A stretch of DNA of 64,000 nt from Actinomycetota bacterium (lineage in GTDB: Bacteria; Actinomycetota; Geothermincolia; Fen-727; JAQUKT01). The position numbers and the translations under genes were made by a program. The notes beneath the pieces are model-generated. The model was not told where the DNA came from and searched no databases. It was given only the letters and a program-made list of their open reading frames with translations. The stretch is taken from NCBI GenBank assembly GCA_028718945.1, contig JAQUKT010000001.1, positions 11,997 to 75,996 on the forward strand. The letters run 5' to 3'. Below are positions 13,266-60,088 of this stretch, piece after piece (the first letter of the stretch is position 1; each line of letters opens with the position of its first letter).

Positions 13266-13575
13266 CCCTCCTCCTTCAAATGACAAAAGAAAATCTACAT
13301 TTTCTCAATGAAACTGACCACAATATAGAGCGCTCTTTCGGAGGTGGTCTTCTATCAAAAGTGCAGTAATTTCTTTGATTCAAACATAAAAAACCCGCCG
13401 TGCAAAAAGGCAGGTTTATCATCTTACCTCTCCTTTCCAAACACGGGAGGCACAACCGTTTCCAGTTGCACCCCATCGCCCTCGCGCCATTGCAGATGCT
13501 TTAGGCGCTTCAGGTCGGAGATATTTTCGTTAAACTAACAAAAACATGGAAAAATGTCAACAAACAAATCAAAGC

Positions 13576-13603
13576 GGGATCAGGTCTTGCAATGACACAT
13601 TTT
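13576..13603 (-). repeat. Copy of 28-nt repeat family (reverse orientation, C variant)
   Basis: GGGATCAGGTCTTGCAATGACACATTTT is the reverse complement of AAAATGTGTCATTGCAAGACCTGATCCC. It forms an inverted pair with the 14103-14130 copy. Confidence 0.7.
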
Positions 13604-14102
13604 CAATCCTTTTCTGCCCTTCCGCTTATTGAACAATCGCCAAGGGCAGCGTTTCCCACAATTATTTTTTCGAATTGACTTGCTCATTCCTTGTTTAGGA
13701 GAAACGGAAGCGGTTTGATCTACAAATCGAAAACGAAACATCAAACCCCGGATTATCGATATGTAGAGTAAAGCCCTATCACTTGTTGAGTAAACGGAAT
13801 AATCGACAAAGGATTGGACTGGAGTGAAATGGGAACTATTTCAAGAGATGGCTATGGCTCGCCCTTGAAGAGAAACCTATTCTACATCTATGAAAAGATG
13901 GGTTAGCCTCTTGGAAAGTTTCAACCCCTGAAAGCACTGCATGGAAGTAGGCTGCGTAAGAAAAGCACTTTTGACCTCATGGACTTTTTTGCCCCCACTT
14001 TCCTTTCAATCAGGCAACAGAACCCTCGAAATGCACGATGCAAGACTACGTTCTTCTCTTTTGGGCTGCTTTCAGCAAAGCAGACGACCGTGCTGGTTCA
14101 CT

Positions 14103-14130
14103 AAAATGTGTCATTGCAAGACCTGACCCC
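14103..14130 (+). repeat. Copy of 28-nt repeat family (forward, C variant)
   Basis: AAAATGTGTCATTGCAAGACCTGACCCC, directly 3' of the stop of the 14150-15238 gene. Confidence 0.7.
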
Positions 14131-14162
14131 ATTATCGGGGGTGACCCCATTATCGGGGGCGC
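14127..14162. repeat. 18-nt tandem duplication (CCCCATTATCGGGGGYGM x2) at the element end, overlapping the 3' end of the downstream gene
   Basis: Direct tandem repeat seen in the sequence. It produces the artefactual DPIIGGDPIIGG ORF on the plus strand. Confidence 0.6.
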
Positions 14163-15238: not shown

Positions 15239-15473
15239 TTTCTATCCCCTTCACGAAAAGGCGCTATTCGATAGATGCTATCTATTATAAGACATTTCCA
15301 ATTCGCAAACCGTTGAAACGACACAGATACATACTCTCACCTCACCGCCGGAGAGCATGTTCTCCCACCACTTCTATCGAGTAAACTGCAAACTCGACCA
15401 AAATTGGGCTTTGAAGAATTTCACGGCAACAGAAATCTATACCGGATAAGAAAGACTTTGCGCCAAGGAATCA

Positions 15474-15502
15474 AAATGTGTTATTGCAAGACCTGACCCC
15501 AT
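15474..15502 (+). repeat. Solo copy of 28-nt repeat family (T variant)
   Basis: AAAATGTGTTATTGCAAGACCTGACCCCA, 4 nt after the stop codon of the 15507-18023 gene. Confidence 0.7.
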
Positions 15503-15506
15503 ACGC

Positions 15507-18023
15507 TCAAGGGTAAGGCTCGACAGCCGCACTTTTGAAAACACCGTAGCAGTCCGCCCGGTCAATTGGGAATTGTTTTTCGATCAAGGTTTTGAATGTA
15601 ACCCACCTCAACGCGCTTGCCGGATTGCTACCGGATGTATTCATGTTGAGCTGATCTACAAGCTTATGTAGGGCACCCAAACCGGGTTCGGTTCCAAGGG
15701 CAATCATCATCTGGCGAGAAGCTTCAAGTGCCTCGGGCGTTTTCATAGCATCTGCGATATTCTGCATTGCAGTGGGGTTATTCGCAAGCAGGTTAACAAT
15801 TGACATCACAAAGTTTCTTCCGTTAGTCGATTCAAGTATCGATGCAGTAGCCGCAGGATCCCCCTTGCCCATCAAATCACCTATGAAATCGGGGCAAGAG
15901 TTAACAATATTTGCGACTAATTGCGGGTCAATTCCGCCCTCCGCAACCGGTTTTACCAGGTCATATAACATTCCCTTGGGCCCGCCGGGTTCATAGCTCT
16001 TCTTGGTTGCCCTATTCATCGCTTCGTTCAGGGCACCAGCATCGAGATTTGCAATCAGGTTTGTGATAAACGTCTGGTTGTTGTTGATAATCGAGACGAC
16101 AAGGTTTGTGCTTATGCCAAAATCCGGGTCCATTAGTGCCTTCGTAAAATACTTCGTTGCCTCAGGCGATAAAGCCATCTGAGCCGGGTCCATGTTCTTG
16201 ATTACGCCAGAAATAAGCGCTTCTCCAGCATCCGTATTTATGGCGTTGCATAGAACAACGGGATTAAGGTTTGAAAGAAGCCCATCGATGAATGCTCCAT
16301 TGTTATTCACAATATATGCAACAGCCTTAGGGTCAAGAGCCTTCATCATCTTATCGGTGTTTTTCGGGTCTTGGGCGTTTACCACATTTGCTATGACCTT
16401 CGGATTGAGGAATGAGATGAGATTCGTGACAAACTCAATGTTGTTGTTAATGGCAACGGCAGTCCCGCTTGGGTCGAGTTTACCCATGAGTCTTGTAATG
16501 AATGTCTCATTGTTGTTAACCACACCCGCAATTACCTGAGGATTAAGCTTCGAAACCACATTTATCATGAAACTCGGGTCGCCATTCATACTTGAAGCCA
16601 GAGCATCGGCATCCAGTTTCCCTATCAACTTCGTGATAAACGCTCCATTGGCATTCACAACTCCAGCGATAACCGCCGGGTCGAGCCTTGCTAACATTCT
16701 GCTTGTCCACTCCCAGTTCTTGGCGCTCATCTCGTTTATTTTGTCTATATCGAGATACTTGAGAACACCCTTCAAGAATCCTGGATTTGCGTTTATTGCA
16801 ACAGCAGTTCCAGCCATACTCATGTTTCCCATCAAGCCCGACAGGAAAGCGCCATTTGCATTTACCGCATTTGCAATAGGCGTCGGATCAAGTTTTGCAA
16901 GGACCTGACACATCATCTCGGTATTGCTTGAAACTGCCCGTATGAGATCCGTGGAAAGATAACCGACAAGCGAACTTATGAATGGAGCCGAATTGTTCAA
17001 TATGCCCGCTATAACCCCGGGATCCAAATAACCTATCAACTTGGTCGTAAAATCGCTCGTTGTTCCTGTATTTTTCGCAAGTCCTGCAGGGTCCATCTTC
17101 GATATCAATCTCGTGAGAAATGCCTGATTGCTCCCGATTGTAGCAATGAACTCCGGACTTATGTTCATTGCGACATCGTATGTAAATTTATTTGTTTCAG
17201 GAGTTGACATCGAGAGCTGGTCGGGGTCCATATAGGACACAAGTTTCGTCAAAAACGCCTGATTTCCGTTTACCACTCCTGCAATAACTGACGGGTCGAG
17301 ATAACCCATAAGGTCCCGAATCATGTTCACATTACTTGCCATTCCAGCGCTCATACCTTCAGCGTCGATTTTTCCAAGGAGTTCAGTTATCCATGCTCCG
17401 TTGTTGTTGACAACCCCCGCTATTGTATCCGGACTCAGATATCCAACAAGCTCACTTGTAAATGTCGGGTCTGCATTCATGGCCTCAGCGGTAGTCGCGG
17501 GATCCGTATATCGAACAACCTCAACGAGGAAATCTCCATTTGCGTTTATCGCATCCGCGATAACTTTTGCGTTGAGATTTCCCACCAGAGAAGCGATGAA
17601 AGGCCCTGCCTTGTTTACGATTTCCGCGGTGATTTTCGGGTCCCCATTAGCCATCATTTCGTTTATGAACTTCTCGTTTTTATTTACAGCCTCAGCAATT
17701 ACCTTTCCATCGATGTAGCCCAGTAAATCCGAAATCCATTCGGGATTCTCGTTTACCGCGATTGCAGTTCCCTTGGGGTCTGAATACTTCATTACCTCAT
17801 TTATGAACTCAGGGTTATCATTTATCGCCTCGGCAACCGCCTTGACATCAAGAGAGCGAAGCATTGCAGCGGTTCCCTTGGGATTGCTGCTCATCTTTCC
17901 AATCATCTTACCAAGAGGGCTTCGGGTTGGAATGAAACCAACAGCGCCAACTGCCGCAAGTGCAACAACTACAATTAAGACCACCGCATTTACCAATGTT
18001 TGAATGCCCTTGTTATAGATCAT
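15507..18023 (-). CDS. Membrane-anchored 23-residue-repeat protein, paralog 1 (about 30 repeats, consensus LDPxVIAxAVNxNxxFIxxLIxx)
   Basis: N-terminal TM helix, conserved PLGKMIGKM segment, then periodic DPxVIAxxVNxN repeats across 838 aa. Low-complexity antisense ORFs occur throughout. Confidence 0.7.
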   Translation of the reverse strand: MIYNKGIQTLVNAVVLIVVVALAAVGAVGFIPTRSPLGKMIGKMSSNPKGTAAMLRSLDVKAVAEAINDNPEFINEVMKYSDPKGTAIAVNENPEWISDLLGYIDGKVIAEAVNKNEKFINEMMANGDPKITAEIVNKAGPFIASLVGNLNAKVIADAINANGDFLVEVVRYTDPATTAEAMNADPTFTSELVGYLSPDTIAGVVNNNGAWITELLGKIDAEGMSAGMASNVNMIRDLMGYLDPSVIAGVVNGNQAFLTKLVSYMDPDQLSMSTPETNKFTYDVAMNISPEFIATIGSNQAFLTRLISKMDPAGLAKNTGTTSDFTTKLIGYLDPGVIAGILNNSAPFISSLVGYLSTDLIRAVSSNTEMMCQVLAKLDPTPIANAVNANGAFLSGLMGNMSMAGTAVAINANPGFLKGVLKYLDIDKINEMSAKNWEWTSRMLARLDPAVIAGVVNANGAFITKLIGKLDADALASSMNGDPSFMINVVSKLNPQVIAGVVNNNETFITRLMGKLDPSGTAVAINNNIEFVTNLISFLNPKVIANVVNAQDPKNTDKMMKALDPKAVAYIVNNNGAFIDGLLSNLNPVVLCNAINTDAGEALISGVIKNMDPAQMALSPEATKYFTKALMDPDFGISTNLVVSIINNNQTFITNLIANLDAGALNEAMNRATKKSYEPGGPKGMLYDLVKPVAEGGIDPQLVANIVNSCPDFIGDLMGKGDPAATASILESTNGRNFVMSIVNLLANNPTAMQNIADAMKTPEALEASRQMMIALGTEPGLGALHKLVDQLNMNTSGSNPASALRWVTFKTLIEKQFPIDRADCYGVFKSAAVEPYP

Positions 18024-18064
18024 CTTTTAAGCTCCTGTGAACTTGTCAGTTCAATCCCTCCAAA

Positions 18065-20527
18065 TCAAAACGGACCCACTGGCTGACCAGCTGTCGTGCA
18101 AAGTCGAGCATCAACAATCTGGGTCCACCCCTCAATGTTAATCAAGCCCAAAAGCTGCAGCTGGCCAAAACTCCATATCTTCGTTATTGCATTGTCCTCG
18201 TGATGCCCGGTAGGTCCATGTATTACTTCCACTATGGTTTGTGGTGATATTCCGCCCGCGTTTTTGTTCAATAGCCCACTGATGAAGTTCCCGCTTTGTT
18301 CAAGTATGGGCGCTGTTCCATCCGGGTCCATACTTGCCATCAATGAACTTATGAAGTTTGTGATATCGGGTGCATCTTCAAGAATAGTCATGAGAATATT
18401 TGGGTCTATCCCTTGAGGAGGCGGAGCGAGCATCGCTTCCATCATTTCAGGATGCGCCCCCATCGCTTGAGCAAGAACATCGGTATCAAGATAACCAAGA
18501 AGTTTCTGAATCATCGGGATAACAGCCGGATTGTTGTTGAGGGTATCGGTGATGTCCGCGGTGTTTGAAAGCTCTGACATCTTAGCGATGAAATCTCCAT
18601 TTAGATTTATTGCGTTGGCTATGACAGCGGGATTCATATGACTCACCAAGTTTGAAATCCAGGTTGCGTTCGTATTCAATAGGTCTGCTATCATGTACGG
18701 GTCAAGGGCACCAGGTTGCAAGAGGCGCTCAACAAAATCGGTGTCGCTCATCTCAATTGAATTCGGATCTATACTTGCTATTACGCCCGTCAGAAATGCC
18801 TGATTGTTGTTTATTGCATAGGTTACTGTTTCTGGCTTTATCTCATGTAACAGACTGGTAATGAACTCCTTGTTCTCATTGATCATCTTTGCGGTTCCCT
18901 TTGGGTCCATTTTGTTCATCAGGTTCGTTATGAATGTCTGATTAGCGTTAACAACGCTTGCAATTACCGCCGGATCAAGATATTTGAGCATATCGCTCAT
19001 CATTTGCGGGTTTGCATTCACCGCGTTGGCAATAACAGTAGTGTTCAGGTTCTTGACCAGATTTGTAATGAATGTTCCATTGGAGTTTACAACCCCGGCT
19101 ATTACCGATGGATAAAGATACTTTGTTATATCAGATGCTGATCCAGTACTCGAATTCACCACAGCGGCAATGACAGCAGGGTCGAGCTTACTCACAAGAG
19201 CAGTCAAGAAATTACCCGACTGGTTGACGCTTTTTGCAGTTGCATCGACGGACATGAGCGGCATCATCTCTCCAATCCAGTTAGTATTAGAATTTACTAT
19301 TCCCGCTATGACCTTTGGGTCAAGCGCCGCAAGAGTTCCAGCCATCAAGTTACTCGTCGCATTCATCGCATTTGCTATCGCAACCGGATTGAGACGCGCT
19401 ATGACATCGGTCAAGAATTTCTCATTCTTCAAAACGGTTACCATCATGTCGGGGTCAGCGTTCCCGCTTGCGGCAACTATGAAATCGATGTTGTTGTTCA
19501 AAACGCTCGCAATAACTGTCGGGTCGAGTGAGTTTATCAAGCCAACCGCAAATCCCCCGATTTGATTCACGAGCCCTCCTATTGAAGCAGGAGAAAGCTT
19601 TTCCATCAACTTCGATGTTGAGGAAGTGTTGTTTACGACGGCGCTCAAAAGCTCAGGGGAAATATTTTCAAGCACGCCGCTAACGGTATTCGCGCTTCTA
19701 TTTACTATTCCCGCTATCACAACAGGGTCGAGTTTCTTTATCAAATTGATGCTCATCTGGGGGTCCTGGCTTGTTGCTCTTGCGATAATCTCTGGATTCA
19801 GTTTCCCCAATAGTTCAGTTATGAAGGGACCATTCTGGTTGACGATATCGGCAATCACATCGAGATTAATGTAGTTTATTACCTCTGAACTTGCGCTGGT
19901 ATTGGAGTTCATCAGGTTCGCTAAAACATCCGTTGATATAAGACCTACCGTCTCGCTGAGGAAAGCCTCGTTTCCGTTTACTGCGTCAGCAATTACCTTC
20001 GGGTCTATGTATGAGGTGACCTTATTCATGAACTCCGTATTGCCCACACCGCTTGTCGCTAATTTTTTCGCGTCAAGCTCACCAATCAGTTCTGTAATGA
20101 ACTTCCCGTTGGCATTTACCGCTCCGGCAATTACCTTCGGGTTCAAGTAATTGAGAAGCTCAACGACGAAATCCGTATTCGCATCCATGCCCTCACTCAT
20201 TGCGGAGGGGTCCATATAACTTATGAGCTCTGTAATCCACTTGCCATTCTTGTTTATAGCATCAGCAATAACTTTCGGGTCGAGAGCGGAAAGGGTTTTC
20301 GACATCATCGTCGGGTCCGCATTCATCGCGTTGGCAAGAACCTTCGGGTCAAGCTGCGAAAGTAAGCCGGATATCAAACCTTTCTGGCTTGCCATCTTTC
20401 CCATCAGCACGCTCAGAGGTGGATTCGAACTGGGTATCATCATGGTCACGCCCAAAATGAGCGATAGCAATAATGCCATAATTATTACTATATTTATAAG
20501 CCCTTGAACTCCTCTTGAAAGTAACAT
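18065..20527 (-). CDS. Membrane-anchored 23-residue-repeat protein, paralog 2
   Basis: 820 aa. Same architecture as paralog 1 (TM helix, PLSVLMGKM segment, repeats of exact 23-residue period). Confidence 0.7.
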   Translation of the reverse strand: MLLSRGVQGLINIVIIMALLLSLILGVTMMIPSSNPPLSVLMGKMASQKGLISGLLSQLDPKVLANAMNADPTMMSKTLSALDPKVIADAINKNGKWITELISYMDPSAMSEGMDANTDFVVELLNYLNPKVIAGAVNANGKFITELIGELDAKKLATSGVGNTEFMNKVTSYIDPKVIADAVNGNEAFLSETVGLISTDVLANLMNSNTSASSEVINYINLDVIADIVNQNGPFITELLGKLNPEIIARATSQDPQMSINLIKKLDPVVIAGIVNRSANTVSGVLENISPELLSAVVNNTSSTSKLMEKLSPASIGGLVNQIGGFAVGLINSLDPTVIASVLNNNIDFIVAASGNADPDMMVTVLKNEKFLTDVIARLNPVAIANAMNATSNLMAGTLAALDPKVIAGIVNSNTNWIGEMMPLMSVDATAKSVNQSGNFLTALVSKLDPAVIAAVVNSSTGSASDITKYLYPSVIAGVVNSNGTFITNLVKNLNTTVIANAVNANPQMMSDMLKYLDPAVIASVVNANQTFITNLMNKMDPKGTAKMINENKEFITSLLHEIKPETVTYAINNNQAFLTGVIASIDPNSIEMSDTDFVERLLQPGALDPYMIADLLNTNATWISNLVSHMNPAVIANAINLNGDFIAKMSELSNTADITDTLNNNPAVIPMIQKLLGYLDTDVLAQAMGAHPEMMEAMLAPPPQGIDPNILMTILEDAPDITNFISSLMASMDPDGTAPILEQSGNFISGLLNKNAGGISPQTIVEVIHGPTGHHEDNAITKIWSFGQLQLLGLINIEGWTQIVDARLCTTAGQPVGPF

Positions 20528-20581
20528 CCGAGTTTCCTCCGGTTATCCCTTCCTCCTGTCTTCCTCCTGTTAAAGTTTCCT

Positions 20582-23350
20582 CTAAAAACCTGGTGGCTTA
20601 GCCGTCGAAGAGTACTTCGTCCACAGATTCTCATCCATAGTAACCCACCCAATAAAAGTGTGAGCTTTTGCCGTCGTCGTAAGGCGCAAATTCTTCATTA
20701 GGGTTGGGTCATCCTCGAGCGTCGAGCACAGTACAATCGGGTCAAGTTTGGCAAGCAATTCGGGCAGAAGCTGCTGGTTCGAGTTTATTGCATCGGCAAT
20801 TACCCGCGGATCGAGATTCGCAAGCAACCGACCTGTCATCTCGGGATGCTTCCCCATCGCCTCAGCAAGAACAGCCGGGTCGAGGTAACCCGGACTTATA
20901 AGCGTTTTAATCAAATCCATGGTATTAGGTTGGTTAATAAGATCAGCCGTAATGCTCGGGTCACTGGTTCCCATGAACTCGGCAATGAAACTCCCGTTCG
21001 CGTTTATCGCATTTGCTACCACCTGAAGTGCGCTTGGATTAGCATCGAGCGCGGCAATTATCCTCCCCACAAAATCATTCGACCCCTGCTCGAGATGAAG
21101 TTCATGCTGCACATCCACCATTGCCTGTACATCGGTGCTTGCTATCATCTCACGAATAAACCCGGGATTTTCGTTTACAGCAGATGCAATCCTTTCGGGG
21201 TCGAGCCCTGAAATCAAATTCGAAAGGAATGCTTCGTTGTTGTTTACTGCCTCACCTATGACCTCGGCATCGAGGTTGTTCATCAAAGCAGTTGTGAAAG
21301 CGGTTGCTTCCTCACTTGCCCTGGTAAGAACAGCCGGGTCAAGGTATTTGATGACATTCTTCAAGAAAACCTTGTTCGCGTTTACCGCGGACGCTATCGC
21401 TGCCGGCGATAAGTATGGAAGCATCTTTGAGGTTGAATCGGGATTCGCGTTCATTGCGTTTGCAATTACCTGAGCGTTGAGATATTTCAAAAGATTTTTT
21501 ATGAACGTCGCGTTCGAGTTTATTATTGCCGCTGTAGTTGATGGGTCTCCTTTGCTCATTACTTTCGAAATGAATGGTCCATTCGAGTTTATGACACTTG
21601 CAAGCATGGCTGGATTCAGTTTCCCAACAAGAGCGGTTATGAAGGGTCCATTCTTGTTTACTATTTTCGCGGTAACTTGGGGGTCGCTCTTCGACATCAT
21701 CTTCTTCAAGAACTCGCCTGAATCGTTTACCACGCCAGCAATAACACTCGAGTCGAGATTGTCGAGAAGTTCCTTTGTCGAGTTTGGATTCGCACTCATT
21801 GCATCCGCAATCACCTTCGGATTCAGTTTTGGCAATAGGGAATTTATAAACGCGACATTCCGGTTGAGAATTGTTGCCGTTGCGGCAGGGTCCCCGGCAC
21901 TCATAACTTTTATGAGGAATTCCTGATTGTTGACTATCGATGCGACAAGGTCTGGCGATATTCCGCCAACAACCGCATAAACGAAATCCTCCTGTTGTTT
22001 GTCCATTGGCTTGGTCAGCTCAGCCGGGTCGAGATTCCTCACAAGTTCAGTCATGAACGCACCGTTTGCATTGAGCGCGCCGGCAATCGCAGCCGGGTTG
22101 AGCGCGCCAATTACCTTGAGCATGAATCCCTGGTTGTTTATGATATCCGCCATCACTGTCGGGTCTGCCGAGTTCACTACCTGAACGATAGTACTCACAT
22201 TTCCATTTATTATCCCTGCTATCACATTAACATTGAGATGAGAAACAAGCCTTGCTATCCAGTCTCCATTCGCATTCACCGCGTTCGCGATAGGAGTCGG
22301 ATCTGAGCTTCGCATCATTGCCATCAGGAAAGCTTCGTTCGAATTCACTACATTCGCTATCACGGTTGGATCAAGCCTTCCCAATAGAGCGCCAATGAAT
22401 GGACCATTGTTATTGACAATATATGCTGTTATCTTGGGGTCTGAATACTGCATCATCGCCTGAAGGAATGGACCGTTTTCATTCACAACATCAGCAACAA
22501 CAACAGGCGATATGTAGGAGATTAGATCAGTAATGAATTTGCCGTTCTCGTTTACTATATAGGCAATCACCTGTGGGTCGAGATATTTCATCAGGTCATT
22601 GCTCATTTCGGGATTTGCTGTTATTATCTCTGCAAGCATGGCTGGGTCGAGATTCCTGATAATATCTGCTATGAGTTTTCCATTTTTGTTTATCGGATAA
22701 GCCAAAGCTTTCGGCTCAAGCAGAGAAATAAGCTTCGTGCTCATCTCTGGATTCGCACCCATCGCATCAGCAATAACCTTTGCAGGAAGTGCGGAAATCA
22801 GTTCAGAAATAAATTCGGGGTTTTCATTCAGTGCCTTCGCCGTTGCCTTCGGATCTCCGCTTGTCATAATTCCCTCGAGGAGATATCTGTGATTCGCGAT
22901 TTCTCCGATCATTTTTCCCAAAGGAGTTTTATCTACCGGAACAATCGCGAATCCAGCAAATAGAATGGTGAAAAGAAGTCCTATTATCACCACAACATTC
23001 ACAAGTGTCTGAAGGTGTGGACCAAGTAGAAAGCCCCCTCCTGGTTGCGGCGCCCGTGCCTTTGCCCTGACCTGAGTAATTTCCGGCCTCGGAGCAACTT
23101 TGGGTGCAATCTGAACTTTTGCTTCGGCGCCAAGAGCGAGTACTTTCTGCCTGTACTCCTGCCTTGCGCGTGCCTGCATCGAAGGATGTTCGACAGAACT
23201 TATAGTTAGCGCTGTCTTGAGGATGAACTCTACCTCCGCTCTATCCTTTTGCTTAGCAAGGAGACTCTCGAGCTTTGTTCTATCCTTCGAAACTGCATCA
23301 AGAAGCTTATCAATCAGGTTGGCTGAACTATTGTCATCCAAGCTAACCAC
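20582..23350 (-). CDS. 23-residue-repeat protein, paralog 3, with ~130-aa cytoplasmic N-terminal domain and single TM (anti-sigma-factor-like architecture)
   Basis: 922 aa. Helical charged N-terminal domain, then TM (LVNVVVIIGLLFTILFAGFAIV), then PLGKMIGEI and the repeat array. Immediately downstream of the ECF sigma gene. Confidence 0.65.
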   Translation of the reverse strand: MVSLDDNSSANLIDKLLDAVSKDRTKLESLLAKQKDRAEVEFILKTALTISSVEHPSMQARARQEYRQKVLALGAEAKVQIAPKVAPRPEITQVRAKARAPQPGGGFLLGPHLQTLVNVVVIIGLLFTILFAGFAIVPVDKTPLGKMIGEIANHRYLLEGIMTSGDPKATAKALNENPEFISELISALPAKVIADAMGANPEMSTKLISLLEPKALAYPINKNGKLIADIIRNLDPAMLAEIITANPEMSNDLMKYLDPQVIAYIVNENGKFITDLISYISPVVVADVVNENGPFLQAMMQYSDPKITAYIVNNNGPFIGALLGRLDPTVIANVVNSNEAFLMAMMRSSDPTPIANAVNANGDWIARLVSHLNVNVIAGIINGNVSTIVQVVNSADPTVMADIINNQGFMLKVIGALNPAAIAGALNANGAFMTELVRNLDPAELTKPMDKQQEDFVYAVVGGISPDLVASIVNNQEFLIKVMSAGDPAATATILNRNVAFINSLLPKLNPKVIADAMSANPNSTKELLDNLDSSVIAGVVNDSGEFLKKMMSKSDPQVTAKIVNKNGPFITALVGKLNPAMLASVINSNGPFISKVMSKGDPSTTAAIINSNATFIKNLLKYLNAQVIANAMNANPDSTSKMLPYLSPAAIASAVNANKVFLKNVIKYLDPAVLTRASEEATAFTTALMNNLDAEVIGEAVNNNEAFLSNLISGLDPERIASAVNENPGFIREMIASTDVQAMVDVQHELHLEQGSNDFVGRIIAALDANPSALQVVANAINANGSFIAEFMGTSDPSITADLINQPNTMDLIKTLISPGYLDPAVLAEAMGKHPEMTGRLLANLDPRVIADAINSNQQLLPELLAKLDPIVLCSTLEDDPTLMKNLRLTTTAKAHTFIGWVTMDENLWTKYSSTAKPPGF

Positions 23351-30300: not shown

Positions 30301-32774
30301 CCGTTACCGGACACGAGGTCTAAGTCGTAAAGATTTGGGGTTGGCGGTCCAACCTGAGCGGGAGCCTGCCATACACCAGCGAGAAGCTGAACATAATAAC
30401 CATTTGCACCAACCGCGTATCCATTCGCGGCATCGGAAAGATAAACGGAATTCAAATCGGGGGTTGGGGCTCCAACCTGAGCGGGAGCCTGCCATGCACC
30501 AGCGAGAAGCTGAACATAATAACCATTTGCACCAACCGCGTATCCATTCGTGGCATCGGAAAGATAAACGGAATTCAAATCGGGGGTTGGGGCTCCAACC
30601 TGAGCGGGAGCCTGCCATCCACTAAGGTATTGAATTGTAATTCCATTTTCACCGACTACATATCCATTGTTAGAATCCACGAAATAGACTGAATTTAATT
30701 TTTCAGAAGTCCACGCCGTGGTGTTGAACTCAATGGAATAATTAGTGCCATCATAATGAATAATCGTTCCTCCACTTCCTACCCAGTAAGCCGTGCCATC
30801 GGGGAGAGAAAAAACATCCTCGAGGTCAACGAGGCTCCAGTGGGGAGTAGCAGAAGAACCATCGAGGGTCTGCCATACAGTTCCTCCCTCTCCAACAGCC
30901 CAGCCAACATCCTTGTTGAGAAAATCTACGGAGAGAAGATTTGTGGCACCAGGGGTTGAAGCGGGATTTCTATCCGTCCACGTGGCAGTTGCGGGAATGT
31001 GAGTCGCCTGCCTTATATGACCACCATCTCCAACCCAAGTAATGTAATAAGTTCCAGGACTTCCGCTATCCTCGACGATTGAGACATCCCTGTTTGAGAA
31101 AGCGCCATCAGCAACAGGATTCCACACCGTCGCGCCGCCATCATTCGTCCAGACCGCCGCCCCATTCTGCCCGACAGCGAATACATAATTCGTTCCATCT
31201 CCCCCAACCTCAACCGCACGCAGGTTCTCTGGAGTTCCAGAATCCTGAGCTTTCCAGGTATTCCCATCTCTCTTTATGATTGCTCCGCCGCCACCAACAT
31301 AGTACTCGATGTCTGCATCGGGTTTTGCCACATCGTAAATGTCAAAGGGACCCCAGGTAGTGCCATTCCTCGTCTGCCAGATACCACCATCCCAAGCCGT
31401 AGCAAACCAGATTCCCGTTGTTTTAGAGAAAGAGACATCAGTGAAATTTGTGGTTCCAACTCCACTCGCATTTGTCCAGTTTGCCCCTCCGTTCGATGTG
31501 TATGCCAGAGTTCCGGAAAGTCCGGCAACATAGCCGCTCGCAGCGCTCTCGAACTCAACTCCAAGCAAATCCTGAGCAGGAGGTGGACCAACAGGGGTAG
31601 ACCATGCAGCAGGAGTGCCACCGGGTGGCGCGTCAGTTGTGTAGAAAAGAGCGCCTCCATCGCCACAAGCCCATACGAGATAATTTCCGCTTCCGCCTGA
31701 ATCATTGTAAACAAAAACATCATTGAGATTTGCAGCAAGTGCGGGACCCGCATTCCAATTAGAGCCACCATCTGTGGTATAAAGATTCACATTGTTTTCG
31801 CCAACAGCCCAGCCATAGTTCGCATTTATGAAATGAATGCCATTCAAATTACTTGTTGTGGTGCTATTCTGAACGGTCCATGAAGAGCCATCATAGAATA
31901 GGATTAGCCCGCGCTGTCCGGCAATCCAGGTGTGTGTTGAATCAAGAGAAAAAACGGCATTTGCCCCGAAATCAGAACTCCACGTGGTTCCCCCATCAAC
32001 AGTGTGAAGAATCGTTCCATCTTTTCCTCCAACCCAGGCTTCATCTTGAGATATCGCAAAAACGGAATTGAGTCTTTTCGTTGTCCCGCTTGCCTGAAGG
32101 CTCCAGGTTGTGCCCCCATCATTCGTCGCGATAATCACGCCGCCGTCCCCGACTGCCCATCCATTGTTAGAGTCAGCAAATGAGACATCGAGTAGGGCCA
32201 TGCTCGACCAGGATGCTCCTCCATCCACAGTCTTCATCACGATTGGCGACCAGGTCGAGGGCTTTTCTAAATCAAGCATATTCGCGCCAACCACTATGGC
32301 TTCAGTGTCGCTCGGCGCGAATACATCAAAGAAAACATTGGTGGTTTCTCCCATATAAACTATGTTCCATGTCCCAACACCAGTTGAATCCGTACACTTT
32401 GATATCAATCCCGAATCTCCAACTGCATAGCCAAGATTGGGACTGCGAAAGTAAACGCCACGAATTGTCAATAGATGAAGGAAAGGATCGTCGCCGACCC
32501 TTTGCCCCGTCCAGGTTGTACCACCATCAGTTGTATGCCAGCAATCGTAGAAGGTGGTTCCATCCAGTGATTGCTGCGGTTGTCCAACCGCCCAGCCCTC
32601 AACTCCGCCGGGCAAGAAGAAAATGTCTTCAAAATGGCTTTCAATAAGATCCTCCCTTTGAGGAGACCATGTGCCAGCAGCGGAAGCCGGAGAGAAAGAA
32701 AGCAAAGCCAGCAAAGAAGCACACAAGACCAAAGACAACAATGAAGTCCTTCTAAACCTTCTAAATACCTTCAA
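24318..32774 (-). CDS. Giant secreted protein (2818 aa): signal peptide, multiple Ycf48/BNR-type beta-propeller regions, 7 IPT/TIG domains, 4 C-terminal ~105-aa repeats of unknown family
   Basis: N-terminal signal peptide ending SPASAAG. Dozens of T/VDGGxTW Asp-box-like motifs. IPT-like P-x-I-x-x-S-P-x-x-G-x-x-G-T-x-V-T-I-x-G-x-x-F-G units. Four repeats starting WYFAEGTTRxGFxEWICLxNP and ending GGHDVxGA. Confidence 0.8.
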   Translation of the reverse strand: MKVFRRFRRTSLLSLVLCASLLALLSFSPASAAGTWSPQREDLIESHFEDIFFLPGGVEGWAVGQPQQSLDGTTFYDCWHTTDGGTTWTGQRVGDDPFLHLLTIRGVYFRSPNLGYAVGDSGLISKCTDSTGVGTWNIVYMGETTNVFFDVFAPSDTEAIVVGANMLDLEKPSTWSPIVMKTVDGGASWSSMALLDVSFADSNNGWAVGDGGVIIATNDGGTTWSLQASGTTKRLNSVFAISQDEAWVGGKDGTILHTVDGGTTWSSDFGANAVFSLDSTHTWIAGQRGLILFYDGSSWTVQNSTTTSNLNGIHFINANYGWAVGENNVNLYTTDGGSNWNAGPALAANLNDVFVYNDSGGSGNYLVWACGDGGALFYTTDAPPGGTPAAWSTPVGPPPAQDLLGVEFESAASGYVAGLSGTLAYTSNGGANWTNASGVGTTNFTDVSFSKTTGIWFATAWDGGIWQTRNGTTWGPFDIYDVAKPDADIEYYVGGGGAIIKRDGNTWKAQDSGTPENLRAVEVGGDGTNYVFAVGQNGAAVWTNDGGATVWNPVADGAFSNRDVSIVEDSGSPGTYYITWVGDGGHIRQATHIPATATWTDRNPASTPGATNLLSVDFLNKDVGWAVGEGGTVWQTLDGSSATPHWSLVDLEDVFSLPDGTAYWVGSGGTIIHYDGTNYSIEFNTTAWTSEKLNSVYFVDSNNGYVVGENGITIQYLSGWQAPAQVGAPTPDLNSVYLSDATNGYAVGANGYYVQLLAGAWQAPAQVGAPTPDLNSVYLSDAANGYAVGANGYYVQLLAGVWQAPAQVGPPTPNLYDLDLVSGNGFAVGGSGTEGYRVPITGGSFGSPVSMDSGTRDLTGISFSSASLAFASGMNRTMWKYDSTGPGWTKISSLEGTDNLNGIDFDTASKYGWVVGNSGIVYLARNGLFTKENSSTTKNLESVSAVSSNNAFACGQDGTIVGRDGTWSVITSPTSNNLYGIDFTDASAGVIAGESRLMAWTNSGGSSWALYSGVQKTTNDFLALDFTDSSNGWICGQAGMLYRYLNGTVGPQTSGTSLELRGISMYSGPAGFAVGDGRLVISTSDGSTWNTLSVLQATNTIYDISFPTAIEGWFCGSSGFILHYNVAFQTQTSGTTEDLYGISLCNNGSNDTGSTVGSNGVVRFTNNNGANWNASSSGHTDDLFGVDIVSLTQGIACGENGRVIRSTNGGQNWADPAAPPSTANNLRGVEFGDSTNNYAWVVGDGGKVYGGTNNGDNWAEQTSQTNNRLNAVSALHDGVNYQCWAVGEVRTIIRSTDGNTWNTISEIPSPSALFASDFVDSSNFYAVGFEVGFEDSSRGIICHTTNGGITFNQELAAGIPPLYGIDAYDSNNVWAAGDSGTVLCWDGVTWNPQGAVPGTVNLRDISIDYNGAIPNFEGVTVGSDGNIYYTSDGGANWDAGSSFNRNDLRASWFESAFSRAFSSGDYGTIIGSTNKGANWNFLQGPANNLNGMSFADANNGIACGEKGVVLYTTDAGATWMPSDSVTDKNLNDVSMYLDGGVYRGIAVGDNATVRRTSNGGQTWSPATSPPVSNNLSSVDFIDSTHAWAVGDNGHIWISADSGDTWTEQESNPTANLRAVDFFDEECGVAVGGTAGSTESVRWTDDGGATWQTPANPPAGSVKINDVSMGGKSDVWAVGEGGSIWYSDDGGDNWVFQEGPVSDELFGVSFGAPGHSDTRNGLIVGASPAVTEPACALYTSNGGGTWGEIESATGVNRSLMGISSIWDTDRIKAYSCGSFGRIQVCSQSLAAPVITPPLVPGNGVTGTEVTINGSSFGAGQPSVNGHVYFGGETEASINTWTGTEIKAVVPNNAITGNVHVVHDGGSSNGVTFTVLPNITNVSPTQMSYGTAVTITGTGFGNDPGSGNRSTDTNNVKVNGGQIPDGSFTSWTRTEIKFTLPPDIEPGIGVPVTVTAGGKESAPPLNVNVIPKIEKLSPDSGKTGDEIEINGGNFGTSPLPYDPNNCVKMQKMDEDGNVSLEMVPEAFMVSWNNTNIKFKIPDDPAVFQPWTGPVRVLRNSSASTQDPVLSITPWISGTSTTTAKVGDSVTIDGSGFGEVQGANGKVYFNNVDSGTASTWGYNRIVVNVPENATSGQLKVQTLYGESNLIPFNVTPVIDWLSSSEGRVGDSVTINGTGFGASKGSNTVKFNGEPAQVEGWTSTKITVSVPAKATSGSVIVTVNDVESNQKSFKVLPKITSISPSSGIPGTTIVTINGFTFGETQGSSKVTFAGVDAGKAKSWSKTKIETRVPAAVTSGGVIVTTPSGQSNSVQFTAGPYISSVSPLNGPAGISVTVSGKNFGDEQGTSKVRFANVDAIDVESWSDSSVRAKVPMGAKTGNVTITTPVGTSNGIQFSVTLPKTFYFAEGTTRQGFQEFICLMNPNDTAASVTITYMLSEGPNQTHELEVSAKSRLTVRVEDVVGKEKDVSARVDSDKQIVAERPMYFNYNGVWTGGHDVMGAVGASKEWYFAEGNTRDEFEEWICLQNPSEHEAAVEIKYMLTGGGTRAQGVKVPAKSRRTISAKQFLGPGVDCAAKVTSDVGIVAERPMYFNYKNMWTGGHDCMGATSPSETWYFAEGTTRSGFDEWICLLNPGTYVADVKITYMLETGETKAQSLSVLGTSRVTVDVHGAVEREHDVSARITSSQPIIAERPIYFDYVGITGGHDVIGANSTASQWYFAEGTTMQGFQEWLSIQNPGDKEAEVRITYMLTGGENKEQKLAVPGHARVTVDVNGSIGWGKDAGAKVVALGEDNKGIIVERPMYFDFYGWTGGHDVIGFPLW
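30346..30627. repeat. Near-identical 123-bp tandem repeat (2 full + 1 partial copy) inside the giant gene
   Basis: Copies start at 30346, 30469 and 30592 with only a handful of mismatches. Each encodes the 41-aa unit WQAPAQVGAPTPDLNSVYLSDATNGYAVGANGYYVQLLAGA in frame. Confidence 0.85.
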
Positions 32775-57186: not shown

Positions 57187-58338
57187 TTATGAAAGAATCC
57201 TCGTCGCAAGGTTCCACAGAAAACCGCGCACTATTTCTATGTTTGAAATATCGATGTTTTCAATCGTATCGGTTCCCCAGTGCCAGTTTGGAAGATTTCC
57301 CTCATCATCGAATGCCATTATGCTCATTGCGTGATATCCCCTTACGAGCGCCGGTGTTGCATCAGTTGAAAGAAGCCTGTATGAGGAGCGCCACATAGGA
57401 TAGCCTTTCTCTTTGATTACCTTTTCAGAAAGCCAAAGTAAAACTGAATCTGAATCATGCCCGATGAGCATGCCCTCCCTTTTGATATAGCAAAGATGGC
57501 CTTCCCCAAGATTGTCAAGATTTATTATTTTCGCATCCTTAAGCCGGCTACCATGCTTTTTCAAAAATTCAATCATTCCGGCAGTGCCGACCTCCTCAGC
57601 ACCAGTCGCAACGAACATTATCCCGGGAAGCCTTGATTCAGACTCGCTCAGCTTATCCATGAGCGCAAGCATGGCAACCACACCGCTCCCGTTGTCGTTT
57701 GCCCCAGGCGTGAAGTCCATTCTTATCTCCCTGTGTGCGAGGTTGACAAATGGAACAATAAGAAATGCCCCCAAGGCAGCTGCTGCAATCCAGAGACCAA
57801 AGTTCGCCTCTCCCTCAAGAATTCGAAGAGCCATATTCACCGCCGAGAGCAAACCAACTCCTATGATTCCGCCTATCATAAGGGAAAAGGAAATCCTGAA
57901 ATTCTTCACCAGTTTTGGATGGAATGAAAGTGCCGCTTTTGCACTGTCGTAGTGAGCAACAACAACCATGCTCACTTTTCCGTCTGAATCTGGAATCTCT
58001 CCGATGACATTCCGGCTCAAGCGATGAGGAAAAACTTTTGAGATTACGGGAATCGTCTCGAGGTCAATTGCAAAAAGGACAGCGTTGAGAAAAGCAATAG
58101 GGGCAGTATAAAGGACAAACCATTTTGAAAGAAAAGCGCACGAAATAGAAATAAAAAGATAAAACATGTAAAGATAGGAATAGGTATCAATCGTGAAGAA
58201 CTCCTGGGTTTTTGTGTCAAGCCCTCTCTCTTCGAATCTTTCCCTTATGTATCTCGCAGCTCTTGCTTCGGCAGGGCTCGAGGCTCCCCTCGGACCTATC
58301 TCAACCGTCAACTTCAAAAAGTCTTCCCGGATTCCCAT
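57187..58338 (-). CDS. M28-family metallopeptidase with membrane-spanning insert
   Basis: HYDS, NDNGSG and TGAEEVG zinc-ligand blocks. Two to four hydrophobic helices are inserted between them. Confidence 0.55.
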   Translation of the reverse strand: MGIREDFLKLTVEIGPRGASSPAEARAARYIRERFEERGLDTKTQEFFTIDTYSYLYMFYLFISISCAFLSKWFVLYTAPIAFLNAVLFAIDLETIPVISKVFPHRLSRNVIGEIPDSDGKVSMVVVAHYDSAKAALSFHPKLVKNFRISFSLMIGGIIGVGLLSAVNMALRILEGEANFGLWIAAAALGAFLIVPFVNLAHREIRMDFTPGANDNGSGVVAMLALMDKLSESESRLPGIMFVATGAEEVGTAGMIEFLKKHGSRLKDAKIINLDNLGEGHLCYIKREGMLIGHDSDSVLLWLSEKVIKEKGYPMWRSSYRLLSTDATPALVRGYHAMSIMAFDDEGNLPNWHWGTDTIENIDISNIEIVRGFLWNLATRILS

Positions 58339-58379
58339 CCCGATTTACCACCTTTGCTTCCACCAAGAATGGCAAGAAT

Positions 58380-58460
58380 GGGGTCAGGTCTTGCAATAAC
58401 ACATTCACTCATTATACACAAGGCAAGCGAAGAAATGTGTTATTGCAAGACCTGACCCCA
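58380..58460. repeat. Perfect 27-nt inverted repeat (two T-variant copies of the repeat family) with 28-nt spacer; stem-loop
   Basis: Left arm 58380-58405 is the exact reverse complement of right arm 58435-58460. It overlaps the last ~17 codons of the 58412-60088 gene. Confidence 0.85.
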
Positions 58461-60088
58461 TTTACCAACCAGCGAGAAACCTCGTCAAGCACATTTGTCT
58501 CAACTTTCGGGTGTGACATATATGGTTTCGAACCAGCTTCATCTATCATGTTCCCAAACCAGTGGTCAAGTCCATCAAAAGTGATAATCTTACTTTCAAA
58601 TCCTTTCCGCTTCTCCAGTGCTTCCATGAGCTCCCTGGCCTCCTCAACTGGAACAATTCTGTCGCTTGCGCCTGCCACGACCAAAACCGGAACTTCAAGG
58701 AGCTCAAGCGTTTGCAGGGTATCATGCTCCATGTGAGAGCGCATCCAACCGAGGAAAGGTTTGTGCTTGCCTATCGTTATTTTATCTACTGAACTTTCCA
58801 CCAGGCTTACGAGGTAATTGACCCATTCCCACTTTGATTCAAACTCTTCCTTCCCCAAATTTTCAGTTTTTCTTTCTTCATCAAGCATCCTCAAGAAAGT
58901 GTCAGGAAAATAAGGAGCGGATGGGGTGGCGATAAGGACACATGCTTGAATGTAGGGATTCGAGGACGCGGCAGCAGATGCAGAAATACCGCCTTCCCCG
59001 TAGCCAACAATACCAATTCTCTCAATATCAATATCTCCTCTCATCACCAAATAGTCAATCTTGGAATGGATATCCTGAACCTCTGTTTCGAGAGTATAGT
59101 ACCTGTAGTTTCCCTCGCTATCCGCTACGCCACGCCTGTCGCAGCTGAGAACCGCGAATCCCTCTTTTGCAAGTCTGTTCGCAAGTTGAGACAAAAAACC
59201 GCATCCAGTTCTATCCTGTGGTCCCTCATCTCCAACAAGAACAACTGCTTTGTATGGAGGTTTTCCGCGAGGGATCAGAAGAGAGCCTGCGAGTTCAATC
59301 CCATCAATGCTTGTTATCCTCACATCGAGGATTCTCCTTGCCCTCAAGGGATATGGCTTTGAAGCAGGTCTTCCGGGCCAGCCCTTTTTGAAAACCAGCC
59401 CCGTGCATCTGTCGCGTACCTCTACTATTTCGCCATTCCCATCGAATTTCAAAAGATAATTTATGCCGCTCGAGACAACTGCTACGGTTCGGTTTTTGGT
59501 CATTGTCGCAAAGGTCTCATAGAGCGACTTCCCTTGAGAAGGAATCATGGTCACCAGACGCAATTCCTTGCAATGAGACTCGAGTAATCTATCAAGCAGA
59601 ATCTGAAGAGAGCAAACGGATCCTCGCTCGAGAGGAAAAAAGTTCATTCCCGGATCAAAACCTGAAACATCCTCAAATGTCTGTAAGTCATCTCTAAAGT
59701 AGTTGTAACGTCCGATATCCGTTCTATCCAAACTTGCGCTGAAAATAGGACCACCTCTATCGTGCCCGCCGTAATATGCCAGCAAATATCCATTTTTCGA
59801 AATTTTTACCTCTTGCTCAAGAGTTGTCTCAAAATCGAGAAACGGGCGCCTGGTGGTGCTTTTATATATCACAAAATCATCATGTTCTTCCTTCCAGAAG
59901 CGCTCGCTTCCTATGACCTCATCGTTCTCGAGTATCGAATACCCCCTCACCGATATGCAGCCCTGAAGAAATGGAAAGAAAAGCGTGAAAAGCGAAACCG
60001 CAAGAACAATGGAAAAAGCGCGAAGTAGGCTATTTCTCTTTTTGCTTTTTGTTCGCCAAGACCTCTTTTGTCCCATCCTGTCCATCAT
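58412..60088 (-). CDS. S9/S15-like alpha/beta-hydrolase peptidase (dipeptidyl-aminopeptidase/acyl-aminoacyl peptidase-like)
   Basis: 558 aa. GYGEGG nucleophile motif with a C-terminal alpha/beta-hydrolase fold preceded by a beta-rich N-domain. The C-terminus is read from the inverted-repeat element. Confidence 0.6.
   Translation of the reverse strand: MMDRMGQKRSWRTKSKKRNSLLRAFSIVLAVSLFTLFFPFLQGCISVRGYSILENDEVIGSERFWKEEHDDFVIYKSTTRRPFLDFETTLEQEVKISKNGYLLAYYGGHDRGGPIFSASLDRTDIGRYNYFRDDLQTFEDVSGFDPGMNFFPLERGSVCSLQILLDRLLESHCKELRLVTMIPSQGKSLYETFATMTKNRTVAVVSSGINYLLKFDGNGEIVEVRDRCTGLVFKKGWPGRPASKPYPLRARRILDVRITSIDGIELAGSLLIPRGKPPYKAVVLVGDEGPQDRTGCGFLSQLANRLAKEGFAVLSCDRRGVADSEGNYRYYTLETEVQDIHSKIDYLVMRGDIDIERIGIVGYGEGGISASAAASSNPYIQACVLIATPSAPYFPDTFLRMLDEERKTENLGKEEFESKWEWVNYLVSLVESSVDKITIGKHKPFLGWMRSHMEHDTLQTLELLEVPVLVVAGASDRIVPVEEARELMEALEKRKGFESKIITFDGLDHWFGNMIDEAGSKPYMSHPKVETNVLDEVSRWLVNGVRSCNNTFLRLPCV

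What the first reader, a model, noticed from the sequence alone, without database searches (positions are those of the whole stretch)
58380..58460. Perfect 27-nt inverted repeat of the same family forming a hairpin that supplies the C-terminal codons of a peptidase gene
Two T-variant copies face each other across a 28-nt spacer to give a perfect 27-bp stem. The S9-like hydrolase ORF (58412-60088, minus) reads through the spacer into the repeat. Its last 17 residues (...NGVRSCNNTFLRLPCV) are encoded by the element, and the palindrome makes a plus-strand ORF share the GVRSCNNTF peptide. This suggests an element insertion that truncated or replaced the native 3' end. Alternatively the hairpin acts as a terminator or RNA-stability element between two minus-strand genes.
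Basis: seen in the sequence. Interest (0 to 1): 0.5.

Follow-up and report, generated by a model that had tools for sequence, protein, structure and literature searches.

The report
Miniature transposon hairpin capping a gene
The perfect hairpin is a tiny non-coding mobile element, made of two facing end-repeats of a little-studied tyrosine-transposase transposon family, that landed in the last codons of a hydrolase gene and now supplies its final 15 amino acids and stop codon.

Summary
Arms 58377-58405 and 58434-58462 are a perfect 29-nt inverted repeat (reported as 27) around a 28-nt spacer. The hydrolase ORF (58412-60088, minus) ends inside it.

The repeated unit is a 26-27-nt sequence, GGGGTCAGGTCTTGCAATRACACATTT, with five copies in the window. 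The same sequence occurs in genomes of more than 10 bacterial phyla. In eight loci, pairs about 0.9-1.1 kb apart flank a ~280-aa IS200-like Y1/HUH transposase with a C-terminal HTH. This matches the "TIRtron/TIRYT" class (Di Nocera 2013; TIR motif GGGGWSAS), a cousin of REPIN/RAYT systems.

Close pairs are almost always tip-outward doublets (41 of 46). They show no target-site duplication, and spacers recur within lineages. The window's hairpin is therefore a miniature, non-autonomous doublet.

Hydrolase homology stops 3 codons before the element. A syntenic relative lacks the element and stops 5 codons after the same Trp. The insertion reading is supported. An intrinsic-terminator role is not (no U-tract).

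No transposase gene lies in the window.

Side finding: TIR tips often carry tandem "stutters" ending exactly after GGGGTCA, which suggests a nick site.

Verdict: new member of a known, poorly studied kind; moderate interest.

The parts
58380..58459 (.). Miniature TIR doublet: two family units tip-outward plus a 28-nt spacer, 80 bp. The perfect palindrome extends 3 nt further on each side, to 58377-58462.
   Evidence: The same tip-outward doublet architecture is seen in 41 of 46 close pairs in other genomes.
58380..58405 (+). Left arm (copy D): GGGGTCAGGTCTTGCAATAACACATT
   Evidence: 0 mismatches. Unit boundaries come from the position-by-position conservation of 171 copies.
58406..58433 (.). 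28-nt spacer or loop, unique to this copy. It contains the hydrolase stop codon (58412-58414, minus strand).
   Evidence: The spacer was not found in fetched loci or in JGI metagenomes.
58434..58459 (-). Right arm (copy E), identical to D. It lies inside the hydrolase ORF.
58412..58459 (-). Element-encoded 3' end of the hydrolase ORF: 15 codons (GVRSCNNTFLRLPCV) plus the stop.
58412..60088 (-). alpha/beta-hydrolase (S9/S33-like) gene, 558 aa. It is identical to an NCBI Actinomycetota MAG protein.
57187..58338 (-). Downstream M28 peptidase gene. Its start is 41 nt past the element, and its Shine-Dalgarno-like AAGGTGG lies outside the hairpin.
58364..58381 (+). 9-nt tandem repeat CAAGAATGG x2 abutting or overlapping the tip of arm D.
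13576..13601 (+). Family copy A (2 mismatches, G-variant), 44 nt from the 5' end of a Moco riboswitch.
14105..14130 (-). Family copy B (G-variant). With copy A it brackets a 555-bp non-coding segment (13576-14130).
   Evidence: There is no TIRYT relic inside.
14124..14159 (+). 18-bp tandem 'stutter' (TGACCCCATTATCGGGGG x2) made of the 7-nt TIR tip plus 11 nt of flank. The stop codon of ORF 14150-15238(-) lies in the second unit.
15475..15500 (-). Family copy C (solo, A-variant), 6 nt downstream of the stop codon of the 838-aa repeat-protein ORF 15507-18023(-).

Best explanation
The hairpin is a miniature, non-autonomous mobile element. It consists of two copies of the ~26-nt terminal inverted repeat (TIR) of a 'TIRtron', placed tip-outward around a short spacer. 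A TIRtron is a transposon-like unit whose only gene is a TIRYT, an IS200-like Y1/HUH tyrosine transposase with a C-terminal helix-turn-helix.

Inferred mechanism. In single-stranded DNA at a replication fork the two arms pair into a long stem. A TIRYT encoded elsewhere in the genome binds that stem and cuts it. The cut is probably between nt 7 and 8 of the TIR (GGGGTCA|GG). The doublet is then copied or moved without a target-site duplication, as proposed for REPINs and RAYTs.

Shown here. This copy lies in the last codons of an alpha/beta-hydrolase gene, 3 codons after the last conserved residue. The gene now takes its final 15 codons and its stop codon from the element.

Inferred consequence. 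The non-conserved C-terminal tail was swapped rather than the enzyme inactivated. A very stable stem-loop now sits in the hydrolase-M28 peptidase intercistronic mRNA. There it may affect mRNA decay or translation, but it is not a canonical terminator.
For: Identity of the repeat:
- The 22-mer core occurs exactly in at least 86 stretches of GTDB genomes from more than 10 phyla.
- 171 copies define a 26-27-nt unit with a sharp outer edge.
- Eight tip-outward pairs 868-1130 nt apart enclose a ~280-aa ORF. That ORF matches Pfam Y1_Tnp (47 bits) with weak C-terminal HTH hits, scores 75.5 bits on NCBIfam REP_Tyr_transpos against a cutoff of 80, has an invariant HUH motif and Tyr, and has E. coli TnpA_REP 4ER8 as its only solved relative.
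- Repeat-blind test: of loci fetched by protein similarity alone, 65 of 70 carry the TIR core upstream in the right orientation (wrong-orientation control 2 of 70) and 57 of 75 carry it downstream. A Legionella plasmid homologue at 41% identity has GGGTCAGGCCTTGC TIRs.
- Literature: TIRYT/TIRtron with TIR motif GGGGWSAS and TIRs dispersed as singles, dimers and clusters (PMC3733652); subclass 2.1 with HTH C-termini (PMC6006769). Our TIR starts GGGGTCAG.

Doublet as a mobile unit:
- 41 of 46 close pairs are tip-outward and none is tip-inward.
- Spacers recur within lineages and in both orientations.
- There is no TSD above chance.
- Doublets are mostly intergenic (33 of 41).

Insertion in the gene.

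Hairpin stability.

Nick-site inference: tandem duplications abutting TIR tips are about 20-fold enriched over random positions, and their mode ends exactly after nt 7.
Against: - No TIRYT gene or detectable relic lies in the 64-kb window. The rest of the genome could not be fetched, so a cognate transposase in this organism is assumed.
- No second copy of this exact doublet (same spacer) was found. Mobility of this particular copy is therefore inferred from the family.
- No close-strain empty site exists in the databases: the next homologue is 49% identical.
- Virtual excision does not regenerate an orthologue-like stop.
- TIRYT transposition has never been shown experimentally in the literature I could search.
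- Identical TIRs on opposite strands do not fit the IS608 single-strand excision scheme in any obvious way.
Confidence: 0.8

Rival explanations
1. A classical REPIN of a REP/RAYT system: two palindromic GTAG-type REP units, vertically inherited, with one domesticated RAYT per genome.
For: The doublet-forming-hairpin architecture is the same, and the associated protein is RAYT-like. Some doublets sit at orthologous sites in related species (L016/L046, L051/L061).
Against: The single unit is not itself a palindrome; only TTGCAA is self-complementary. It has no GTAG or CGTC tag. The protein scores below the NCBIfam REP_Tyr_transpos cutoff and carries an extra HTH domain. The same TIR core is shared across more than 10 phyla, unlike lineage-specific REPs. 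Di Nocera et al. separate TIRYTs from RAYTs.
Confidence: 0.08
2. A conventional MITE derived from a DDE-transposase insertion sequence, moved by cut-and-paste with a target-site duplication.
For: It has TIRs of about 26 bp, a small size and no coding capacity. An 'AT' dinucleotide flanks both ends of the window copy.
Against: The TSD length distribution over 52 elements matches the shuffled null. The only gene ever found between the TIRs is a Y1/HUH protein. The AT is explained by a weak flank preference and by the inverted-repeat extension.
Confidence: 0.04
3. A host-evolved regulatory hairpin (intrinsic terminator or mRNA stabiliser) that arose in place between the two peptidase genes and is not a mobile element.
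For: The stem is very stable. It lies between two co-directional genes. REP-like hairpins are known to stabilise upstream mRNA (background cited in PMC3733652).
Against: The arms are copies of a cross-phylum transposon end. There is no U-tract. The syntenic relative lacks any such hairpin. The stop codon lies in the loop, so ribosomes must melt the 5' arm. A secondary, exapted effect on mRNA is not excluded; it is compatible with the main explanation.
Confidence: 0.05
4. An assembly artefact: a palindromic chimera created when the MAG was assembled.
For: The source is a metagenome-assembled genome, and perfect palindromes can arise from fold-back chimeras.
Against: The flanks continue collinearly into two genes in the same order as in an independent relative. 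Equivalent doublets occur in isolate genomes (Collimonas L008) and in dozens of independent assemblies.
Confidence: 0.02

Closest known systems
TIRtrons and TIRYTs (TIR-associated tyrosine transposases; Di Nocera, De Gregorio & Rocco 2013, BMC Genomics 14:522). Most fall in TnpA_Y1 subclass 2.1 of Quentin et al. 2018.
   Same: A RAYT-like Y1/HUH protein with a C-terminal HTH is flanked by long TIRs that begin GGGGWSAS (ours begin GGGGTCAG). The TIRs also occur dispersed in the genome as singles, dimers and clusters.
   Different: The window holds only the dispersed TIRs (one dimer, one 555-bp pair, one solo) and no TIRYT gene. The specific 26-mer, its near-invariant 13-nt core across more than 10 phyla, the absence of TSDs and the tip 'stutters' are not stated in the texts I could read.
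REPINs and RAYTs (Bertels & Rainey 2011; Nunvar et al. 2010)
   Same: Two inverted short repeats separated by a spacer form a hairpin. The unit is non-autonomous, presumed to be mobilised in trans by a Y1 transposase gene that is itself flanked by the repeats. It is mostly intergenic.
   Different: REP units are themselves short palindromes with a GTAG tag. They are lineage-specific and vertically inherited. Here the unit is non-palindromic, and its core is shared across phyla.
IS200/IS605 family (IS608, ISDra2)
   Same: The same HUH/Y1 catalytic fold, a dependence on ssDNA and no target-site duplication.
   Different: IS200/IS605 ends are subterminal hairpins in direct, not inverted, arrangement. 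There are no long TIRs, and the transposase lacks the C-terminal HTH.
Bacterial MITEs that fold into RNA hairpins (Correia/NEMIS, RUP, ERIC)
   Same: A small TIR-bounded non-coding element inserted next to or into gene ends. It is co-transcribed and able to alter mRNA fate or add codons to ORFs.
   Different: Those elements are DDE-derived and make TSDs (for example TA for Correia). This family shows none and is tied to a tyrosine transposase.

Membership tests
TIRtron/TIRYT-associated TIR repeats (Di Nocera 2013) | The repeat is the terminal inverted repeat flanking a RAYT-like Y1/HUH transposase gene. | tested here: met
   Eight repeat-seeded loci have tip-outward pairs 868-1130 nt apart enclosing the gene. 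In protein-seeded loci, 65 of 70 carry the TIR upstream and 57 of 75 downstream, against a control of 2 of 70.
TIRtron/TIRYT-associated TIR repeats (Di Nocera 2013) | The TIR begins with the GGGGWSAS motif. | tested here: met
   GGGGTCAG. Positions 1-8 are 85-100% conserved in 171 copies. The motif is quoted.
TIRtron/TIRYT-associated TIR repeats (Di Nocera 2013) | The encoded protein has the HUH motif and a catalytic Tyr, and is longer than RAYTs because of an HTH C-terminus. | tested here: met
   H63-Y64-H65 and Y122 are invariant in 8 proteins. Pfam Y1_Tnp matches, with weak HTH_23/28/38 hits. The alignment to 4ER8 covers the HUH motif and the Y..NPV helix.
TIRtron/TIRYT-associated TIR repeats (Di Nocera 2013) | A cognate TIRYT gene is present in the same genome as the dispersed TIRs. 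| not testable with these tools
   None lies in the 64-kb window (best profile E = 0.29). The source contig and genome could not be retrieved.
REPIN (Bertels & Rainey 2011) | Two inverted repeat units separated by a short spacer form a hairpin and are replicated as a unit. | tested here: met
   Lineage-specific spacers recur in both orientations.
REPIN (Bertels & Rainey 2011) | The unit is a REP: a short imperfect palindrome, typically GTAG-tagged. | tested here: not met
   The unit has only a 6-nt self-complementary TTGCAA and no GTAG or CGTC tag.
REPIN (Bertels & Rainey 2011) | The associated protein is a bona fide RAYT (NCBIfam REP_Tyr_transpos equivalog). | tested here: not met
   75.5 bits against a cutoff of 80, and only residues 9-142 of 282 match.
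DDE-type MITE | Target-site duplication flanking the TIRs. | tested here: not met
   Observed TSD lengths were 0:38, 1:6, 2:6, 4:1, 5:1. The null gave 0:36, 1:10, 2:4, 3:1.
Rho-independent (intrinsic) terminator | A G+C-rich stem followed by a U-tract on the transcribed strand. | tested here: not met
   No terminator-like site at 58377-58462 on either strand. The stem is followed by AUUCUUGCCAUUCUUGG.
Any Rfam RNA family | Reaches the family's gathering score. | tested here: not met
   Only sub-threshold generic long-hairpin (miRNA precursor) matches, at most 36 bits against cutoffs of at least 48. There was nothing at gathering threshold.

The most novel reading that the evidence does not exclude
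The GGGGTCAGGTCTT-tipped TIRs mark a single, deeply conserved family of TIR-bounded Y1/HUH transposons that has spread horizontally across more than 10 phyla. Subclass 2.1 was previously thought to lack associated repeats and proven mobility. On this reading its miniature doublets are active MITE-like passengers. The tandem 'stutter' scars, whose mode ends exactly after GGGGTCA, map the enzyme's nick site in silico (GGGGTCA|GG). They also reveal a nick-induced fork-collapse and re-priming side reaction. This would be the first mechanistic handle on TIRYT transposition.
Probability: 0.35. Interest if true: 0.6.

Novelty: new member of a known kind. Interest (0 to 1): 0.4.

Why it matters
For this genome, the result explains an odd annotated C-terminus. 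The deposited 558-aa hydrolase carries a 15-residue tail of transposon origin. It also flags a very stable stem-loop inside a conserved cell-envelope/peptidase gene cluster.

More broadly, TIRYTs are almost unstudied: two papers in the searchable library mention them. Whether class-2 Y1 transposases are mobile at all is an open question. This survey gives concrete, testable material for it:
- a 13-nt TIR core that stays nearly invariant while the proteins diverge to about 42% identity;
- tip-outward doublets with no target-site duplication;
- a sharply defined breakpoint after nt 7 of the TIR.

Tried and rejected
1. Searched JGI metagenomes for the window-specific spacer to find sister copies or an empty site: 0 hits.
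2. Looked up the source contig through the exact hydrolase protein: not on record, so the rest of the genome was unavailable.
3. Made a global DNA alignment of the hydrolase/M28 junction with the 49%-identical relative: too diverged to be informative. I read the junction by eye instead.
4. Tried virtual excision of 80-86 bp in eight variants: none restores an orthologue-like stop. Tails of 13-28 aa after the conserved Trp result.
5. Tested whether the 555-bp A-B segment is a decayed TIRYT gene: tblastn and a TIRYT profile against the six-frame window gave nothing (best E = 0.29), and its interior matches no fetched locus.
6. Scanned viral contigs for the 22-mer: 0 hits. Plasmids hold few homologues.
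7. CRISPR repeat or integron attC readings were rejected. Copies are inverted rather than direct, spacing is irregular, and there is no GTTRRRY core.
8. Inverted-repeat extension beyond the GGGG tip is only mildly enriched (5 of 40 with at least 3 nt; 79 of 5000 shuffles reach this). The boundary was therefore kept at GGGG.
9. Searched paper text for the sequence strings: no relevant hit.

Full report
**1. The observation**

Window 58377-58405 and 58434-58462 form a 29-nt, 100% complementary inverted repeat with 28 nt between the arms.

The arms belong to a family. The 26-mer GGGGTCAGGTCTTGCAATAACACATT matches five places in the window with at most 2 mismatches: A 13576(+), B 14105(-), C 15475(-), D 58380(+) and E 58434(-). 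No match is expected in shuffles. A scan with the 13-nt core adds only one chance-level hit.

The doublet folds at -64.4 kcal/mol as RNA (z = -11) and at -32.8 kcal/mol as ssDNA (z = -10).

The 558-aa ORF 58412-60088(-) is identical to a deposited Actinomycetota-MAG alpha/beta hydrolase. It matches Hydrolase_4, Peptidase_S9, DLH and related Pfam families. It reads through arm E and stops in the loop. Fifteen codons plus the stop lie in the element. The shared GVRSCNNTF peptide in the antisense ORF 58212-58736(+) is simply the palindrome read from the other strand.

**2. What the repeat is**

The hosts included Methylomirabilota/Rokubacteria, Nitrospirota, Burkholderiales (including cultured Collimonas), Gallionellaceae, Atribacterota, Caldisericota, Thermotogae, Acidobacteriota, Verrucomicrobiota, Gemmatimonadota, Desulfobacterota-like lineages and Actinomycetota.

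Allowing 5 mismatches gives 171 copies. Their alignment shows a unit of 26-27 nt with a sharp outer edge at the first G and random sequence outside it.

The geometry of neighbouring copies is highly non-random:
- Of 46 pairs no more than 200 nt apart, 41 are tip-outward (GGGG ends outside) and none is tip-inward.
- Gaps run from -3 to 172 nt.
- Eight tip-outward pairs 868-1130 nt apart each enclose one ORF of about 280 aa.

That ORF has these properties:
- It matches Pfam Y1_Tnp (IS200-like; 47 bits) and has weak C-terminal HTH matches.
- It scores 75.5 bits on NCBIfam REP-associated tyrosine transposase, just under the cutoff of 80.
- It keeps an invariant HUH motif and a Tyr in RYxxLNPxR.
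- Its only solved relative is E. coli TnpA_REP, 4ER8.

**3. Match to the literature**

Quentin et al. 2018 (PMC6006769) place Y1 proteins with Bac_DnaA_C/HTH_23/HTH_28 C-termini in subclass 2.1. They note that 20 of the 26 'TIRYTs' of Di Nocera et al. 2013 belong there, flanked by inverted repeats with the consensus GGGG[AT][CG]A[CG].

Di Nocera et al. (PMC3733652) define TIRtrons and TIRYTs. They state that the TIRs form moderately abundant families organised as singles, dimers or clusters.

Our unit starts GGGGTCAG. The window's hairpin is therefore a TIR dimer of this class.

**4. A repeat-blind test**

The first set of loci was selected on the repeat itself. I therefore fetched 80 metagenome loci by protein similarity alone (39-49% identity to an Actinomycetes TIRYT). 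Results:
- 65 of 70 loci with enough flank have the 15-nt TIR core upstream in the correct orientation. The wrong-orientation control gave 2 of 70.
- 57 of 75 have it downstream, and 49 of 66 have both.
- The outer 13 nt GGGGTCAGGTCTT are at least 90% conserved. The inner half varies by lineage.

A Legionella plasmid homologue (41% identity) has GGGTCAGGCCTTGC TIRs.

In the repeat-seeded set, the proteins are 42-79% identical to each other while the TIRs are 81-100% identical (this figure is biased by how the loci were selected).

**5. How the doublet behaves**

- Spacers are shared between related genomes and occur in both orientations. Examples are the Atribacterota loci L014, L041, L048, L060 and L069, the Thermotogae loci L012 and L031, and the deltaproteobacterial pairs. 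The doublet plus spacer is therefore copied as a unit.
- Some doublets sit at orthologous sites in related species (L016/L046, L051/L061).
- The flanks show no target-site duplication beyond the shuffled null. This argues against a DDE-type MITE and fits HUH/Y1 chemistry.
- Doublets are mostly intergenic (33 of 41) and often lie a few to a few dozen nt past a stop codon. Only 3 of 41, including the window's, contain the stop codon of a long ORF.
- In the window, copies B and C also sit 19 and 6 nt downstream of stop codons.

**6. The insertion in the hydrolase**

In an alignment with 18 homologues the last invariant residue is Trp540. Homologues end 3-11 residues later with unrelated tails. 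The window protein continues LVN and then the element-encoded GVRSCNNTFLRLPCV.

The closest relative (P0002, 49% identity) lies in the same gene order: FtsW, PBP, hydrolase, hydrolase, M28 peptidase. It has no copy of the repeat. It stops 5 codons after the Trp, and a 55-nt spacer precedes the conserved ATGGGAAT start of the M28 gene.

Removing 80-86 bp in silico gives tails of 13-28 residues and no orthologue-like stop. The exact ancestral end therefore cannot be reconstructed, and at most a few native residues were replaced.

The M28 Shine-Dalgarno-like AAGGTGG lies outside the stem. No U-tract follows the stem. Rfam offers only sub-threshold generic hairpin matches.

**7. Mechanism: what is shown and what is inferred**

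Shown: family membership, the doublet architecture, the lack of TSDs, the position in the gene and the stability of the stem.

Inferred by analogy with REPIN/RAYT and IS200/IS605: the doublet folds in ssDNA and is processed in trans by a TIRYT encoded elsewhere in the genome.

Not shown: that this genome has a TIRYT. None is in the window, and the rest of the genome could not be fetched. It is also not shown that this particular copy is still mobile, since no sister copy was found.

**8. A side observation that bears on mechanism**

TIR tips are often preceded by tandem 'stutters'. Of 326 tips, 41 abut a perfect tandem repeat of at least 2 units, against 2.0 per 326 at random positions.

With a slightly looser criterion, 46 tips have a duplication spanning the tip. 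In 24 of these the unit ends exactly after TIR nt 7. Four more end at 'nt 9' where the flank begins with GG, which is also compatible with 7.

Each unit consists of 5-25 nt of outside flank plus GGGGTCA. Examples are L058, L064, L102, L106 and window copy B at 14124-14159. The left breakpoints show no common motif.

My reading is an inference. The enzyme nicks GGGGTCA|GGTCTT. When a replication fork collapses at that nick, or the end is mis-rejoined a few nt upstream, the segment ending at the nick is duplicated.

The window doublet's own left tip carries a 9-nt tandem repeat (58364-58381), with the boundary at nt 2.

**9. Verdict**

The element is a new member of a known but barely studied kind: a TIRYT/TIRtron-associated TIR dimer that works like a REPIN. 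The event itself is ordinary, a mobile element swapping a non-conserved C-terminal tail. The family-level features that came up on the way are more interesting than the hairpin and are directly testable: the cross-phylum 13-nt core, the absence of TSDs and the nt-7 breakpoint.

Noticed in passing
All fetched loci. In the window: 14124-14159 and 58364-58381.: Tandem 'stutter' duplications abut TIR tips: 41 of 326 tips, against 2.0 per 326 random positions. The modal unit is 5-25 nt of flank plus exactly the first 7 nt of the TIR (GGGGTCA), present in 1-4 copies. This suggests a site-specific nick or joining point between TIR nt 7 and 8. I did not find it described in the papers I could read.
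   Followed up: partly
L001-L086 (GTDB genomes), L091-L170 (metagenomes), L090 (Legionella plasmid): The outer 13 nt of the TIR (GGGGTCAGGTCTT) are at least 90% conserved across TIRYT homologues from more than 10 phyla, while the proteins diverge to about 40-50% identity. The 22-mer was absent from IMG/VR viral contigs, and TIRYT homologues are rare on plasmids. How the family spreads is open.
   Followed up: partly
window 13414-13532 (-) and 13576-13601: A Moco/tungsten riboswitch (Rfam RF01055, 67 bits) lies upstream of a periplasmic-binding-protein-like ORF (12391-13122, minus). TIR copy A sits only 44 nt upstream of the riboswitch 5' end, where its promoter should be.
   Followed up: no
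window 13576-15500: Copies A and B bracket a 555-bp non-coding segment with no TIRYT relic. Copies B and C, in the same orientation, flank a 362-aa ORF (14150-15238, minus) with an N-terminal B-box/zinc-ribbon-like motif and C-terminal membrane helices. Whether any of this is cargo or a composite element is unknown.
   Followed up: partly
window ~15507-23000 (-): Very large ORFs are built from dozens of degenerate 69-nt (23-aa) repeats. The repeat finder families D1-D10 have spacings in multiples of 69. The 838-aa ORF 15507-18023 is one of them. The function was not examined.
   Followed up: no
window 30337-30622: Two full 123-nt tandem repeat units, 97% identical, plus the first 40 nt of a third.
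   Followed up: no
L016/L046 and L051/L061 (Rokubacteria MAGs): TIR doublets lie at orthologous sites, with the same flanks, in different species-level genomes. Some doublets therefore persist vertically, as REPINs do.
   Followed up: partly
L089 against L087 (two assemblies carrying the identical P0002 hydrolase): The region downstream of the M28 peptidase differs between them. L089 has an extra HicA-toxin ORF. This is strain-level variation in the relative's locus.
   Followed up: no
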